Positions 3,929 through 19,261 of a DNA stretch of 64,000 bases are shown here, one piece after another. The DNA comes from a phage. The notes under the pieces are model-generated. The model saw only the letters and a program-made list of their open reading frames with translations. It made no database searches and was not told where the DNA came from. A program made the position numbers and the translations under genes. Where the stretch lies: sequence record PZ386963.1; one strand, 5' to 3'. Numbering within the stretch: position 1 is the first letter of the stretch; the number at the start of each line of letters is the position of its first letter.

Positions 3929-5275
3929 ATGAGTTCGAATATCTTCAGACTTGCTGATAGATTATTCAACCAACCTTTACTAGCCACTGAATCATTAGCT
4001 CACTCAGCAGCAACTTATGTGAATAACAGATTGCTGGGTGATGTCCAAGCAGCAGTAAACTTTGATAAACCCAAAGGTGAAGCAAGAAGTCTTTTAAAAG
4101 TAAAAGATGACATTGCTATTATCCCTATTATGGGTGGTTTAACCCATCGTATGACATTCATTGATGCAATGTGTACAGGTGGATTAAGCTCTTATGAAGG
4201 TTTGCGTAGAGGCTTTGACGAAGCTTTAGCAGATGAGTCAATCAAGACTATTGTTCTGCACATTGATTCTGGTGGTGGTGAAGCTTCAGGTTGCTTTGAA
4301 TTAGCACGTCACATTATGGCTTCAAGAGGCCAAAAGAAAATTATTGCTTATGTAGATGAGTTCGCTTGTTCCGCTGCATACGCTCTTGCATCTTCTGCTG
4401 AAGAAATTATTGCATCACCAGATGCAGATGTTGGTTCTATTGGTGTAATTATGGTTCATCAGGAATTAACTAAAGCATTTGAAAAGAATGGCGTGACAAT
4501 TAACGTCATCAAAGCTGGTGAGTTTAAAGGTATGGGTTCACCATTCCAAGCACTTTCAGAAGAAAGCAAAGAAAGACTTCAAAAGAGAATTAATGATACC
4601 TACGCAACCTTTACAGGTTTTGTAGCCGAATCTCGTAATCTCTCTGAAGAAGCTGTAAAGAATACTGAGGCGAATGTTTATTCTGCTCAGGAAGCTCTTG
4701 AACTTGGTTTAATTAACTCAATCATGTCTCAAGATGATTTCTTAAATTACTTACAAGGTTCTGAAGAGGCTCCTGTAAGTTTAAACGTTAACAATTCAGG
4801 TGAAGAAATGACTGAACAAGAAAAGCAAGAACTAGAAGCTTTGCGTCTTCAGGTTGCTCAAATGAAAGCTAAAGAACAGGAAGCTGCTTTGTCAGATTTG
4901 ACTAATAAGATTTCTGCTTCTGCTGAAGCTTTTGGGTTTGATGCAAAAGAAGCTGCAACGACTATTTTAGGTGCTGGTCTTGATAACCCTCTGAGTGTTC
5001 TGTTTATGAATGCTATGGAAGGTGCTAACCAGAAACTTAATGAAACTATCGCGTCCCACGCTTCTGCAATGGAAGAAAAAGAATCAGAAATCGCCAAGCT
5101 GAAAGAAACTGCTGGTGCTGTTCTTGAACATTCCAACGCTATGGAAGAAGTGGGTAATGACGGCGAAGCTGATTTGGTTGAAGAAGAAAAAGAACCAGCT
5201 AAAAATGCTTCCGAAGACACCGCTGAACAACGCAAACTGGCTCTCCAGAATGCTCTAAAATCTCTTATCAAATAA
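3929..5275 (+). CDS. prohead protease (S49/SppA-like fold) fused to coiled-coil scaffold domain
   Basis: N-terminal half has IAIIPIMGG..VLHIDSGGGEASG..CSAAYALASSAEEI pattern typical of S49 peptidases; C-terminal half is E/K/A-rich helical; position before capsid gene. Confidence 0.6.
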   Translation: MSSNIFRLADRLFNQPLLATESLAHSAATYVNNRLLGDVQAAVNFDKPKGEARSLLKVKDDIAIIPIMGGLTHRMTFIDAMCTGGLSSYEGLRRGFDEALADESIKTIVLHIDSGGGEASGCFELARHIMASRGQKKIIAYVDEFACSAAYALASSAEEIIASPDADVGSIGVIMVHQELTKAFEKNGVTINVIKAGEFKGMGSPFQALSEESKERLQKRINDTYATFTGFVAESRNLSEEAVKNTEANVYSAQEALELGLINSIMSQDDFLNYLQGSEEAPVSLNVNNSGEEMTEQEKQELEALRLQVAQMKAKEQEAALSDLTNKISASAEAFGFDAKEAATTILGAGLDNPLSVLFMNAMEGANQKLNETIASHASAMEEKESEIAKLKETAGAVLEHSNAMEEVGNDGEADLVEEEKEPAKNASEDTAEQRKLALQNALKSLIK

Positions 5276-8728: not shown

Positions 8729-10081
8729 ATGTGGAATCCAATTGTTAATGTAGATATTACATTGAACACCGCAGGAACTACAAGAGAAGGTTTTGGTTTG
8801 CCACTATTCTTAGCTTCAACAGATAACTTTGAAGAAAGAGTGCGTGGTTACACTTCCTTAACTGAAGTTGCTGAAGATTTCGATGAGAATACTGCTGCAT
8901 ATAAGGCTGCTAAACAACTTTGGAGTCAGACTCCTAAAGTAACTCAGCTTTATATCGGTAGACGCGCTATGCAGTACACTGTATCAATTCCTGATACCGT
9001 TACCGAAAGTACAGACTACTCAATTACTGTAGCTGCTGGCGGTGGAATTTCTCAACCATTCCAGTATACAGCACAAAGCTCAGACACTGCTGAGGTAGTG
9101 TTGCAACAGTTTAAAACACAGATTGAAGCTGACCCAACAATCAAAGATAAGGTTTCTGTGAACGTAACTGGTAGTGCTGGTTCTGCCACAATGATTATTA
9201 CCAAAGCTGGTGATAATGACTTTGTGAAAGTAACAACCACAGCACAGACTGTATATATTGCAAGTACAACTGCCGATACAGCAGCAACTGCTCTGGCAGC
9301 TATCGAAGCTTATTCTACCGACTGGTATTTCATTGCAGCAGAAGACAGGACTCAACAGTTTGTCTTAGCAATGGCTTCTGAGATTCAGGCTCGCAAGAAA
9401 ATCTTCTTTACAGCTAACTCTGATGTAACAGCTCTGCAAGGGACAGAATTAGCCAGTGCAAATGATGTTCCAGCACAGCTTGCTAAGAATATGTACACTC
9501 GTACAGTTTGTTTGTGGCATCACGCAGCAGCAGAAGATTACCCAGAGATGGCATACATTGCTTATGGTGCTCCATATGATGCAGGTTCAATTGCTTGGGG
9601 TAATGCTCAGCTAACTGGTGTAGCAGCTTCTCTACAACCATCTAATCAGAGACCTCTGACAAGTATTCAGAAGTCTGCTTTAGATGCACGTCACTGTAAC
9701 TTTATTGACCTCGATGGTGGTGTTCCAGTGGTTCGTAGAGGGATTACTTCTGGTGGGGAATGGATTGATATCGTCCGTGGTGTTGACTGGTTAGAATCAG
9801 ACCTGAAAACTTCTCTGAGAGACTTGCTAATTAACCAGAAGGGTGGTAAGATTACTTATGATGATACTGGTATTACCCGTATTCGTCAAGTCATTGAAAC
9901 CTCTCTGCAAAGAGCAGTCAACAGAAACTTCCTGTCATCTTACACAGTTAATGTTCCTAAAGCCTCTCAAGTTGCTTTAGCAGACAAGAAAGCTCGTATC
10001 CTGAAAGATGTTACCTTCGCAGGTATCTTAGCAGGGGCTATCTTGGATGTTGACTTGAAAGGTACAGTGGCTTACGAATAA
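8729..10081 (+). CDS. putative tail sheath protein
   Basis: 450-aa ORF followed by a ~150-aa tube-like ORF, chaperones and tape measure (myovirus order). Confidence 0.5.
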   Translation: MWNPIVNVDITLNTAGTTREGFGLPLFLASTDNFEERVRGYTSLTEVAEDFDENTAAYKAAKQLWSQTPKVTQLYIGRRAMQYTVSIPDTVTESTDYSITVAAGGGISQPFQYTAQSSDTAEVVLQQFKTQIEADPTIKDKVSVNVTGSAGSATMIITKAGDNDFVKVTTTAQTVYIASTTADTAATALAAIEAYSTDWYFIAAEDRTQQFVLAMASEIQARKKIFFTANSDVTALQGTELASANDVPAQLAKNMYTRTVCLWHHAAAEDYPEMAYIAYGAPYDAGSIAWGNAQLTGVAASLQPSNQRPLTSIQKSALDARHCNFIDLDGGVPVVRRGITSGGEWIDIVRGVDWLESDLKTSLRDLLINQKGGKITYDDTGITRIRQVIETSLQRAVNRNFLSSYTVNVPKASQVALADKKARILKDVTFAGILAGAILDVDLKGTVAYE

Positions 10082-10096
10082 TAGAGGTAAATTGGA

Positions 10097-10543
10097 ATGG
10101 CTATGTATCAGCAATATTCCCCTAAAGACGTTGTATGTAGCTGGAACGGCATTGCTATTGAAGGCTTTGCCCCAGACTCATTCTTGCGTCTACAGAGAAC
10201 ATCACCACTTGTGACACCAGTTGTTGGTGCAGGTGGTCAGGTTGCTCTGACACGAAATGCAGACAAGACAGGTACTATTGAGATTGAGCTAATGCAGACT
10301 TCTCTCTCTAACCAGATGCTTTCTGCAATTCAAGCTAAACAAGACAATATGGAACTTGAAGAAGATATCTCTTCTAACTTCGTAATCTACGACCCATCAG
10401 GCTCTGTTCTGGCAACTGGTATTAACGCTTGGTTGCAGGAGTTACCACAGATTGAACTTGGTCGTGACCAGAACTCTAAAACTTGGATTTTTGGTTGTGA
10501 GAAGTTAGACTACACTTCTACAATTCCAGCGTCAAGTGTTTAA
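10097..10543 (+). CDS. putative tail tube protein
   Basis: 148-aa ORF between sheath-like gene and chaperone pair; terminator hairpin follows. Confidence 0.5.
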   Translation: MAMYQQYSPKDVVCSWNGIAIEGFAPDSFLRLQRTSPLVTPVVGAGGQVALTRNADKTGTIEIELMQTSLSNQMLSAIQAKQDNMELEEDISSNFVIYDPSGSVLATGINAWLQELPQIELGRDQNSKTWIFGCEKLDYTSTIPASSV

Positions 10544-10616
10544 TAAATCCTATAAGGGGGAGACTTTAAAAGGTCTTCCCCTTTTTTGTTTCTTTTAAAA
10601 GTATTAAGGAATCGCA

Positions 10617-11015
10617 ATGAAAACAGAATTTAGAGTAATTAATGGTAAGAAAGTAAATATCGTTCTGCTTGGGGCAAGAGATGGTATTAAGATGTCTATG
10701 AAGTTGGGTAAAATTGTTGTTCCAACCTTTGCACAGATGCTATCAAGTCTGACTGACAAGGGTAAGAAGGAAGCTCCAATGGTTCCATTTAAAGAACTTG
10801 TTGAAGCTTGTTTTGACAGAATTGAAGAAATTAACCTTGAAGAAATGGCAACTCTGTTATTTCAAGGGGCAACTGTTGATGACTTCCCACTTAATATTGA
10901 TACGTACTTCCAAGCAAACTACGGTGAATTTATTGATTACTTAGCATTTGCGCTGGAGGCAAACTTCGGAAGTTTTTTCGAAGCAAGCATTTTCAAAAGC
11001 CTAACTTCTCAGTAA
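10617..11015 (+). CDS. tail assembly chaperone (G-like)
   Basis: 132-aa ORF immediately upstream of tape measure; contains slippery T_TTT_TTC near 3' end. Confidence 0.5.
   Translation: MKTEFRVINGKKVNIVLLGARDGIKMSMKLGKIVVPTFAQMLSSLTDKGKKEAPMVPFKELVEACFDRIEEINLEEMATLLFQGATVDDFPLNIDTYFQANYGEFIDYLAFALEANFGSFFEASIFKSLTSQ
10973..10979 (+). other. candidate -1 programmed ribosomal frameshift slippery heptamer T_TTT_TTC
   Basis: Heptamer in zero frame of chaperone ORF; -1 frame open through 11257. Confidence 0.45.
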
Positions 11016-11017
11016 AC

Positions 11018-11256
11018 ATGGGTAATACTCTACAGACACCACTGACTGATGCTGCTGTAGAGGCAACCTATGAAGAAGCAGACGAGATGAAATTTGTGCT
11101 TGCTATTTATGGTATGGAAGGGTGTAAAGAAACACTTGACCAACTCTTTGCTATGACATTCTCTGATTTATTATCATTGAGACAATTTCTTGAGATTCAG
11201 AGGTCGTATAAAGAGGAAATTGCTTACAACGAACTTAGAAGAGCAGGAAAAATGTA

Positions 11257-11257
<1 letters not shown>
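11018..11257 (+). CDS. tail assembly chaperone -1 frame extension (GT-like; probably made as frameshift fusion)
   Basis: 79-aa ORF in the -1 frame relative to 10617..11015; that frame is open from 10937. Confidence 0.45.

Positions 11258-19261
<8,004 letters not shown>

What the first reader, a model, noticed from the sequence alone, without database searches (positions are those of the whole stretch)
10937..11257. Candidate programmed -1 frameshift in tail assembly chaperone genes
The 10617..11015 ORF is in frame 0 and the 11018..11257 ORF is in the -1 frame, which is open from 10937 onward. A slippery heptamer T_TTT_TTC sits at 10973-10979 in the zero frame inside the overlap, so a -1 slip would fuse about 120 aa of the first ORF to about 93 aa of extension. 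This is the conserved G/GT-type frameshift found just upstream of tape measure genes in tailed phages.
Basis: partly seen in the sequence, partly recalled or inferred. Interest (0 to 1): 0.5.

Follow-up and report, generated by a model that had tools for sequence, protein, structure and literature searches.

The report
Felix O1-type tail chaperone -1 frameshift
This is the ordinary, already annotated programmed -1 ribosomal frameshift that lets a Felix O1-like phage make a short and a long tail assembly chaperone from one stretch of DNA just upstream of its tape measure gene.

Summary
ORF1 (10617-11015) and ORF2 (11018-11257) are in frames 0 and -1, the -1 frame is open from 10937, and T_TTT_TTC lies in the zero frame at 10973-10979. 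A slip there gives a fusion of 121 + 92 = 213 aa.

The window is a Felixounavirus (98-99% identical to Felix O1). The two ORFs lie between the sheath/tube genes and the tape measure gene. ORF1 belongs to Pfam Phage_TAC_15.

The site is not a chance match:
- It is the only in-frame T6Y heptamer in 81 genes.
- It is kept in every relative examined, down to 26-34% protein identity.
- It sits at the sharpest peak of nucleotide conservation in the locus.

ORF2 has no Shine-Dalgarno sequence, and its ATG is missing in several lineages. A Buttiauxella prophage encodes the long form as one in-frame gene and has lost the T-run.

No downstream hairpin was found. A GGAGG lies 13 nt upstream and may stimulate the slip.

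The feature is already known. RefSeq records for phages Mushroom and Moogle carry exactly this joined protein, and a 2025 paper describes the motif across the Andersonviridae. I found no experimental proof. Interest is low.

The parts
10617..11015 (+). ORF1, the short tail assembly chaperone (TAC-N, gpG-like), 132 aa, product of normal decoding
   Evidence: Pfam PF21822 Phage_TAC_15, E 1.7e-19, 71 bits against cut-off 22. phrog_1613 and phrog_3840 'tail assembly chaperone'. SD AAGGA, -6.1 kcal/mol.
10973..10979 (+). Slippery heptamer T_TTT_TTC (U_UUU_UUC) in the zero frame; proposed site of the tandem -1 slip of two tRNA-Phe
   Evidence: Sequence. Only in-frame T6Y in 81 genes. T6C or T6T is kept in all relatives. 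It lies inside the longest invariant run, 10971-10981. U_UU.U_UU.Y is a high-efficiency -1 motif class in E. coli (PMC4066793).
10937..11015 (+). Overlap in which both frame 0 and frame -1 are open
   Evidence: In relatives the -1 frame opens as little as 3 nt before the heptamer (P778, L040, L041), which confines the shift to this site.
10979..11257 (+). -1 frame extension (92 codons plus stop), the C-terminal 'T-like' domain of the long chaperone; includes the annotated ORF2 (11018-11257)
   Evidence: phrog_4963 'tail assembly chaperone', E 2.8e-55. The -1 peptide FFRSKHFQKP upstream of the ORF2 ATG is conserved. It aligns in frame with the long TAC gene of a Buttiauxella prophage.
10617..11257 (+). 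Long chaperone (TAC-NC, gpGT-like), join(10617..10979, 10979..11257), 213 aa
   Evidence: The same join, made on the Mushroom and Moogle loci, reproduces RefSeq YP_009600435.1 and YP_009145710.1 exactly; the window's own fusion differs from the Mushroom protein by one residue (G49D). Phage CL1, with T7, encodes a 98.1%-identical fusion with this exact junction as one ORF.
10955..10959 (+). Internal SD-like GGAGG, 13 nt upstream of the heptamer; possible dnaX-type stimulator (inferred)
   Evidence: Sequence. Present in Felixouna-, Susp- and Mooglevirus, L032/L033, Arno162 and L084; absent in Kolesnikvirus, P778 and L060. AGGAG or GGGAG lies 11 nt upstream in L039-41 and L043. The 6-17 nt range for SD stimulators is from PMC4066793.
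10980..11002 (+). Highly conserved block directly 3' of the heptamer (GAAGCAAGCATTTTCAAAAGCCT); dual-coding, no stable fold
   Evidence: Mean pairwise identity 0.93-0.96, against 0.6-0.7 elsewhere. It is the only blastn-detectable stretch shared with Erwinia phages. Fold of 10980-11020: -2.3 kcal/mol, z = +0.45. It diverges in Arno162 and L084.
11257..13473 (+). Tape measure protein gene (the chaperone's client)
   Evidence: Pfam TMP_3 at 60.5 bits; phrog_4036, E 0.
10097..10543 (+). Tail tube protein gene (presumed partner of the long form's C-domain)
   Evidence: Pfam PF11681 and phrog_280.
8729..10081 (+). Tail sheath gene
   Evidence: phrog_205 'tail sheath', E 2.6e-123; Pfam DUF3383.
10554..10583 (+). 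Intrinsic-terminator-like hairpin plus T-run between the tube gene and the chaperone gene
   Evidence: 13-bp stem with 6 GC pairs, followed by TTTTGTTT. Annotated 'terminator' in phages Barry and Tribble.

Best explanation
ORF1 and ORF2 are one recoded gene pair for the tail assembly chaperone of a Felix O1-like myovirus.

Most ribosomes decode 10617-11015 normally and release the 132-aa short chaperone (TAC-N, gpG-like). A minority slip. When the two tRNA-Phe sit on UUU (P site) and UUC (A site) at 10974-10979, both move back one base and re-pair on UUU UUU. Translation then continues in the -1 frame from CGA at 10979 to the stop at 11255-11257. The product is a 213-aa long chaperone (TAC-NC, gpGT-like) with the same N-domain plus a 92-aa C-terminal domain.

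By analogy with lambda G/GT (inferred, not shown here), the shared N-domain coats the tape measure protein encoded immediately downstream. The C-domain of the rare long form recruits the tube protein. This starts tube and sheath polymerisation at a fixed short:long ratio, and neither form ends up in the virion.

The slip probably relies on the intrinsically shifty U_UUU_UUC. It may be helped by an internal SD-like GGAGG 13 nt upstream. It does not rely on a downstream hairpin.
For: Shown here:
- Frames, overlap and heptamer are as stated.
- Synteny is sheath, tube, TAC, extension, TMP, and ORF1 is in a TAC family.
- This is the only in-frame T6Y in 81 genes; P about 0.0013 for the overlap.
- T6C or T6T is kept in zero-frame phasing in Felixouna-, Susp-, Moogle- and Kolesnikvirus, Yersinia P778, Arno162, Vequintavirinae (LTH01, CR3) and metagenomic relatives at 27-34% identity.
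- The three longest invariant nucleotide runs in the 641-nt locus all lie within 10971-10998. The stop/ATG junction is the least conserved part.
- The ORF2 ATG has no SD: +0.7 kcal/mol against a median of -5.8.
- That ATG is ATA in L016 and absent in Kolesnikvirus and P778. No ATG, GTG or TTG occurs within 150 nt after the slip in L041-43.
- The -1 frame is closed only 3 nt upstream of the heptamer in P778, L040 and L041.
- A Buttiauxella prophage encodes short and long forms as separate genes. Its long form aligns across the predicted junction (E 9e-13), and its short gene has lost the T-run (TCA TTC TTC).
- Phage CL1, with T7, encodes this fusion junction in a single 213-aa ORF, 98.1% identical to the window's predicted fusion.
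- The same join is deposited for Mushroom and Moogle.

From the literature:
- H_HH.U_UU.Y motifs are among the most efficient -1 sites in E. coli and are used by IS elements (PMC4066793).
- The frameshift is noted for Moogle and Mijalis (PMC4319497, PMC5543628).
- A conserved GTTTTT motif is reported at the TAC-N 3' end in 231 Andersonviridae genomes (PMC12846349).
Against: - I found no mass-spectrometric, reporter or genetic evidence for the fusion protein in any Felix O1-like phage.
- No significant downstream hairpin lies within the usual 5-9 nt spacer, so efficiency may be low.
- The upstream GGAGG is missing in three lineages.
- In this genus the ORF2 ATG sits 2 nt after the ORF1 stop (TAAACATG), so some termination-reinitiation cannot be excluded.
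- The roles of the N- and C-domains are inferred by analogy with lambda. Fold searches of the ORF1 model gave no convincing match to a solved chaperone.
Confidence: 0.88

Rival explanations
1. These are two independent genes. ORF2 is translated on its own from ATG 11018, by termination-reinitiation after the ORF1 stop 2 nt upstream, and no fusion protein is needed.
For: More than 200 GenBank records, including the Felix O1 RefSeq record, annotate two separate CDS. The stop and start are tightly juxtaposed as TAAACATG. Moogle-type phages have a GGAAGG about 12 nt before their displaced ATG.
Against: - The ATG has no SD: +0.7 kcal/mol, among the weakest 4% of 81 genes.
- The ATG is lost in a 95%-identical phage (L016, ATA). 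It is absent in Kolesnikvirus and P778, and L041-43 have no start codon of any kind.
- The stop/start junction is the least conserved part of the locus, while the -1 peptide upstream of the ATG (FFRSKHFQKP) is conserved.
- A natural in-frame long form exists.
Confidence: 0.05
2. The long form arises by transcriptional slippage. RNA polymerase adds an extra U on the T6 run, possibly helped by the weak hairpin at 10953-10969 just upstream, and the U7 mRNA is then read conventionally.
For: - A hairpin followed by a T-run was flagged as terminator-like at 10953-10979.
- Stem-loop-stimulated slippage is known in bacteria (PMC5009743).
- Distant relatives carry T7.
- The protein product would be identical, so protein data cannot separate the two mechanisms.
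- CL1 shows that T7 gives the fusion.
Against: - By general knowledge, not tested here, six Ts is well below the run length at which bacterial RNA polymerase slips efficiently (about 8-9 or more).
- The hairpin is weak (-6.5 kcal/mol, z = -0.4) and not conserved.
- The run is always phased as X_XXY_YYZ, with the required wobble T in the preceding codon. Ribosomal slippage predicts this phasing, although amino-acid conservation also contributes to it.
Confidence: 0.05
3. The two ORFs are an artefact of a homopolymer sequencing error. The true gene is a single 213-aa ORF, as in phage CL1.
For: The CL1 record (OK040806) has T7 and a single 213-aa ORF.
Against: T6 is found in 254 of 255 GenBank records that match the region. 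In IMG/VR there are 32 T6 contigs against none with T7 or T5. The same split-frame arrangement holds in lineages as distant as Vequintavirinae.
Confidence: 0.01

Closest known systems
Joined 'tail assembly chaperone' CDS of Salmonella phage Mushroom (YP_009600435.1, Felixounavirus) and Citrobacter phages Moogle and Michonne (YP_009145710.1, YP_009177317.1)
   Same: Same locus, same heptamer and same junction. Fusions built at this junction from the Mushroom and Moogle loci are residue-for-residue identical to the deposited proteins, and the window's own fusion differs from the Mushroom protein only by G49D. The Moogle and Mijalis announcements mention the frameshift.
   Different: Nothing of substance. 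Those annotations are also predictions without experimental support. Most other records of the genus, including Felix O1 itself, still list two separate genes.
TAC-N/TAC-NC -1 frameshift with a conserved GTTTTT motif in Vandenendeviridae (Pseudomonas phage Adele) and Andersonviridae (PMC12846349, 2025)
   Same: The same comparative argument and the same motif at the 3' end of TAC-N. Andersonviridae is the family that contains Felixounavirus.
   Different: That paper concentrates on Pakpunavirus. It does not give the heptamer phasing, the start-codon and SD analysis, the folding result or the split-gene Buttiauxella control obtained here.
Phage lambda gpG/gpGT (Levin 1993; Xu, Hendrix and Duda 2004, cited)
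   Same: Two overlapping ORFs lie just upstream of the tape measure gene. A -1 slip near the end of the first ORF yields a minor long form. The short form binds the tape measure protein and the long form also binds the tail tube protein (role as summarised in PMC5009743).
   Different: Lambda is a siphovirus and uses G_GGA_AAG (from memory). There is no detectable sequence similarity. Here the tail is contractile and the heptamer is U_UUU_UUC.
Phage P2 E / E+E' (Christie et al. 2002; recalled from memory, not checked here)
   Same: A contractile-tailed phage with a -1 frameshift on a T-rich heptamer (T_TTT_TTG, as I recall) in the gene pair upstream of the tape measure gene.
   Different: A different protein family. 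The P2 frameshift is experimentally demonstrated; the Felix O1-type one is not.
T4-like phages and the Buttiauxella prophage L083: separate short and long TAC genes
   Same: The same requirement for a short and a long chaperone that share an N-domain (PMC10885494 quoting Vladimirov 2022).
   Different: The two forms come from two genes with no recoding. The slippery run is absent from the short gene (TCA TTC TTC in L083).

Membership tests
G/GT-type tail assembly chaperone with programmed -1 frameshift (Xu, Hendrix and Duda 2004) | Two ORFs located between the major tail/tube gene and the tape measure gene | tested here: met
   Sheath 8729-10081, tube 10097-10543, ORF1, ORF2, TMP 11257-13473.
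G/GT-type tail assembly chaperone with programmed -1 frameshift (Xu, Hendrix and Duda 2004) | The second ORF is in the -1 frame, overlaps the 3' end of the first and lacks its own translation initiation signals | tested here: met
   The -1 frame is open from 10937. SD duplex energy is +0.7 kcal/mol against a median of -5.8. The ATG is not conserved.
G/GT-type tail assembly chaperone with programmed -1 frameshift (Xu, Hendrix and Duda 2004) | Canonical X_XXY_YYZ slippery heptamer in the zero frame within the overlap | tested here: met
   T_TTT_TTC at 10973-10979; a high-efficiency class in E. coli.
G/GT-type tail assembly chaperone with programmed -1 frameshift (Xu, Hendrix and Duda 2004) | Slip site and frame arrangement conserved among diverged relatives | tested here: met
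   Conserved in at least 9 lineages down to 26-34% identity, with a nucleotide conservation peak at the site.
G/GT-type tail assembly chaperone with programmed -1 frameshift (Xu, Hendrix and Duda 2004) | Short and long proteins are both produced, at a fixed low long:short ratio | not testable with these tools
   Needs proteomics, western blot or a reporter assay. No published data were found.
G/GT-type tail assembly chaperone with programmed -1 frameshift (Xu, Hendrix and Duda 2004) | Both forms are required for tail assembly and absent from mature virions | not testable with these tools
   Needs genetics and virion proteomics.
Pfam PF21822 Phage_TAC_15 (tail assembly chaperone) | Sequence score above the curated gathering threshold | tested here: met
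   ORF1 scores 71 bits against a cut-off of 22, E 1.7e-19, covering profile positions 1-124 of 127.
Solved tail assembly chaperone folds (for example YqbN, 3klu) | Structural similarity of the N-domain model to a solved TAC | tested here: inconclusive
   [not shown]
dnaX/IS3-type -1 PRF cassette (heptamer plus stimulators) | Stable hairpin or pseudoknot starting about 5-9 nt 3' of the heptamer | tested here: not met
   10980-11020 folds at -2.3 kcal/mol (z +0.45) and 10980-11040 at -3.4 (z +1.4). The only hairpin, 11028-11062, is 48 nt downstream and not conserved. Distant relatives L039 and L040 do have an 8-9 bp hairpin 1-5 nt after T7.
dnaX/IS3-type -1 PRF cassette (heptamer plus stimulators) | SD-like element 6-17 nt upstream of the heptamer | tested here: inconclusive
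   GGAGG at 10955-10959 with a 13-nt spacer. It is conserved in most lineages but not in Kolesnikvirus, P778 or L060. It also encodes the conserved L-E-A residues, so its function is unproven.
Programmed transcriptional slippage | Long homopolymer run (about 8-9 nt or more in bacteria), with frame-independent conservation | tested here: not met
   The run is 6 T (7 in distant relatives) and always in heptamer phasing. The length threshold is from general knowledge.

The most novel reading that the evidence does not exclude
The evidence does not exclude that these phages use an unusual stimulator architecture. The nearly invariant 25-nt block directly 3' of the heptamer (10980-11002), which forms no stable hairpin, might act as a non-canonical enhancer, for example through mRNA-rRNA or nascent-peptide contacts, together with the upstream GGAGG. 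Alternatively, part of the long form might come from hairpin-assisted transcriptional slippage on a run of only six T.
Probability: 0.08. Interest if true: 0.4.

Novelty: already known. Interest (0 to 1): 0.12.

Why it matters
The main value is for annotation. Most of the roughly 250 public Felix O1-like genomes, including the Felix O1 reference, list two separate 'tail assembly chaperone' or 'hypothetical' genes. The 79-aa ORF2 is almost certainly just the C-terminal part of a 213-aa frameshift product, so the correct annotation is join(10617..10979, 10979..11257) alongside the 132-aa short form.

Felix O1-like phages are used widely for Salmonella and E. coli typing and biocontrol, so correct gene models matter for engineering them. 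Scientifically, the site adds one more well-conserved example to a textbook recoding class, with no downstream hairpin. It opens no new question.

Tried and rejected
- **Downstream stimulatory RNA.** I folded 10980-11020, 10980-11040, 10980-11070 and 10973-11100. Nothing significant lies near the site. The 11028-11062 hairpin is too far away and not conserved.
- **Upstream hairpin 10953-10969.** It was flagged as terminator-like, but it is weak, not significant and not conserved.
- **Homology of the C-terminal extension to distant relatives.** A home-made HMM ranked the correct -1 pieces on top, but with marginal E-values of 0.0012-0.6, so I did not rely on it.
- **Structure of the fusion.** Only ORF1 was modelled, and the fold searches were uninformative.
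- **Sequence search of the PDB.** It gave nothing.
- **Protein database search with the fusion.** It returned only short-form cluster representatives, so it gave no extra depth for the C-domain.
- **phrog_3840.** It matched the fusion 16 bits better than ORF1 alone. I did not follow this up because the extension of the alignment may be spurious.
- **Literature search for experimental proof.** Searches for a demonstration in Felix O1-like phages found none. Vladimirov 2022 could not be read.
- **The in-frame A_AAA_AAG in the tape measure gene.** I checked it and dismissed it as incidental.

Full report
**What is in the sequence**

The window is a Felix O1-like myovirus. The region 10000-11600 is 98-99% identical to phages garuso, Felix O1 and more than 200 other Felixounavirus records. 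Felixounavirus belongs to Ounavirinae, family Andersonviridae.

ORF1 (10617-11015, 132 aa) and ORF2 (11018-11257, 79 aa) follow the tail sheath gene (8729-10081) and the tube gene (10097-10543). They precede the tape measure gene (11257-13473). ORF1 matches Pfam Phage_TAC_15 at 71 bits against a cut-off of 22. ORF2 matches only a PHROG named 'tail assembly chaperone'.

ORF2 is in the -1 frame relative to ORF1, and that frame is open from 10937. The zero-frame codons AGT TTT TTC place T_TTT_TTC at 10973-10979 in exact X_XXY_YYZ phasing. A tandem -1 slip gives 121 + 92 = 213 aa with junction ...NFGSFF|RSKHFQKP....

**Is it more than chance?**

In 81 genes (19,574 codons) of the window there are 68 in-frame X_XXY_YYZ heptamers, and only one of them is T6Y: this one. 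The chance of any heptamer in a 26-codon overlap is about 0.09, and of a T6Y heptamer about 0.001.

Comparative data are much stronger. I examined these relatives:
- 36 IMG/VR loci;
- GenBank representatives of Suspvirus (CHB7), Mooglevirus (Moogle), Kolesnikvirus (phiEa21-4, phiEa104), Yersinia phage P778 and Pectobacterium phage Arno162;
- Vequintavirinae (LTH01, CR3);
- metagenomic relatives at only 27-34% protein identity (L039-L043).

Every one carries T6C or T6T in the same zero-frame phasing, at the equivalent position, with an open -1 frame of about 90 codons that runs up to the tape measure gene.

In an alignment of nine sequences from six lineages, mean pairwise nucleotide identity is 0.6-0.7 over most of the locus and rises to 0.96 at 10971-10991. 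The three longest invariant runs in the whole 641 nt are 10971-10981 (AGTTTTTTCGA), 10990-10998 and 10983-10988. blastn against Erwinia phages detects nothing of the 641-nt query except 10962-11002.

In P778, L040 and L041 the -1 frame is closed by a stop only 3 nt before the heptamer. The shift therefore cannot happen upstream of it.

**Is ORF2 an independent gene?**

- The ATG at 11018 has no Shine-Dalgarno sequence. Duplex energy with the anti-SD is +0.7 kcal/mol against a median of -5.8 for 81 genes, which puts it among the weakest 4%.
- The ATG is ATA in a 95%-identical phage (L016). It is displaced in Moogle-type phages and absent in Kolesnikvirus and P778. L041-L043 have no ATG, GTG or TTG in the -1 frame within 150 nt of the slip site.
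- The phiEa21-4 record leaves the region unannotated, and phiEa104 annotates only a 37-aa stub.
- The stop/start junction (10998-11033) is the least conserved part of the locus (0.46-0.59). The -1 peptide upstream of the ATG (FFR.K.FQKP) is conserved.

Two natural 'experiments' agree with this reading. Phage CL1 has T7 instead of T6 and encodes a single 213-aa ORF with this exact junction, 98.1% identical to the window's predicted fusion. It is 1 of 255 matching GenBank records. IMG/VR has no T7 or T5 variant against 32 T6 contigs, so the CL1 T7 is a sequencing error or a rare mutant.

The second case is a prophage-like tail module in Buttiauxella noackiae (L083). It has two separate genes of this family: a 126-aa short form (47% identical to ORF1) and a 201-aa long form. 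The long form aligns with the predicted fusion straight across the junction (residues 81-208, E 9e-13; the extension alone gives E 9e-7). In the short gene the S-F-F codons are TCA TTC TTC, so the slippery run is gone where it is not needed.

**Mechanism**

The best explanation is a programmed -1 ribosomal frameshift by tandem slippage of two tRNA-Phe on U_UUU_UUC. Sharma et al. 2014 place H_HH.U_UU.Y among the most efficient -1 motifs in E. coli. They report more than 0.1% frameshifting for U_UU.U_UU.C and U_UU.U_UU.U without stimulators, and they note use of U_UU.U_UU.C in IS elements (PMC4066793).

10980-11020 folds at -2.3 kcal/mol (z +0.45) and 10980-11040 at -3.4 kcal/mol (z +1.4). The only decent hairpin (11028-11062) is 48 nt away and not conserved. 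Distant relatives L039 and L040 do have an 8-9 bp hairpin 1-5 nt after their T7.

An internal SD-like GGAGG lies at 10955-10959, 13 nt upstream of the heptamer. That is inside the 6-17 nt range used for dnaX-type SD stimulators. It is conserved in most Ounavirinae lineages but not in Kolesnikvirus, P778 or L060, so its role is only a possibility.

The conserved block 3' of the heptamer is most simply explained by dual coding, because both the EASIFK and RSKHFQKP reading frames are conserved. It diverges in Arno162 and L084.

The functional roles are inferred from lambda G/GT (summarised in PMC5009743): the N-domain binds the tape measure protein, and the C-domain of the rare long form recruits tube protein. 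They were not tested here. An AlphaFold model of ORF1 (pLDDT 77) found no convincing solved homologue.

**Rivals**

- Independent initiation of ORF2 (about 5%) is contradicted by the start-codon and SD data above.
- Transcriptional slippage on T6 (about 5%) cannot be excluded from sequence, and it would give the same protein. However, the run is short, and the upstream hairpin is weak and not conserved.
- A homopolymer sequencing artefact is excluded by the T6 counts.

**Comparison with what is known, and novelty**

This is the conserved tail assembly chaperone frameshift of Xu, Hendrix and Duda (2004), and it is already recorded for this very group.
- The RefSeq records of Salmonella phage Mushroom (Felixounavirus, 98.6% identical here) and of Citrobacter phages Moogle and Michonne carry a two-piece joined CDS.
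- Fusions built with this junction from the Mushroom and Moogle loci are exactly YP_009600435.1 and YP_009145710.1. The window's own fusion differs from the Mushroom protein by one residue and is not itself in the collection.
- The Moogle and Mijalis genome announcements mention the frameshift (PMC4319497, PMC5543628).
- A 2025 paper reports the conserved GTTTTT motif at the TAC-N 3' end in 231 Andersonviridae genomes and in Vandenendeviridae (PMC12846349).

Most other records, including Felix O1 NC_005282, still annotate two separate genes. I found no experimental demonstration.

**Verdict**

The feature is already known, and interest is low (0.12). The residual value is a corrected gene model, join(10617..10979, 10979..11257), and the note that this site works, if it works as predicted, without a downstream hairpin.

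Noticed in passing
L008 (Escherichia phage CL1, OK040806.1) 952-1000; equivalent to window 10973-10979: The CL1 record has seven Ts instead of six, so short and long chaperone are fused into a single 213-aa ORF with the predicted frameshift junction, 98.1% identical to the window's fusion. It is the only one of 255 GenBank records like this, and no IMG/VR contig has T7. It is probably a homopolymer sequencing error, or else a long-form-only mutant.
   Followed up: yes
L083 (Buttiauxella noackiae JPRU01000001.1) 4001-4986: A chromosomal, siphovirus-like tail module (TMP_3, Dit_like, Pam3_gp18 downstream) encodes the same chaperone family as two separate genes: a short form of 126 aa and a long form of 201 aa. 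No T-run remains in the short gene. The long form aligns with the window's predicted fusion across the junction.
   Followed up: partly
window 11544-11550: An in-frame A_AAA_AAG, the most slippery E. coli heptamer, lies inside the tape measure gene. A -1 slip would terminate after 5 codons (DCKGY*). The motif is present in Felixounavirus loci only, not in other genera, so it is probably incidental.
   Followed up: partly
window 10554-10591: A strong intrinsic-terminator-like hairpin (13-bp stem followed by a T-run) lies between the tube gene and the chaperone gene. It could lower transcription of the chaperone and tape measure genes relative to sheath and tube. Some related records annotate it as a terminator.
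   Followed up: no
[not shown]
   Followed up: no
GenBank GU169904.1 (Staphylococcus phage SA1) 74360-74997; WP_252560994.1 (Staphylococcus hyicus): Records labelled as Staphylococcus phage or Staphylococcus carry a chaperone locus about 96% identical to Felix O1. They are most likely mixed assemblies or contamination rather than true host range.
   Followed up: no
L039 1849-1875; L040 1861-1890: Distant metagenomic relatives (27-34% identity) use T7 and have an 8-9 bp hairpin starting 1-5 nt after it. The Felix O1 group has none. The stimulator architecture seems to differ between branches of the same chaperone family.
   Followed up: partly
window 11028-11062: A perfect 8-bp hairpin (CTCTACAG...CTGTAGAG) lies inside the ORF2 coding region, 48 nt after the slip site. 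It is not conserved in Suspvirus or Mooglevirus.
   Followed up: partly
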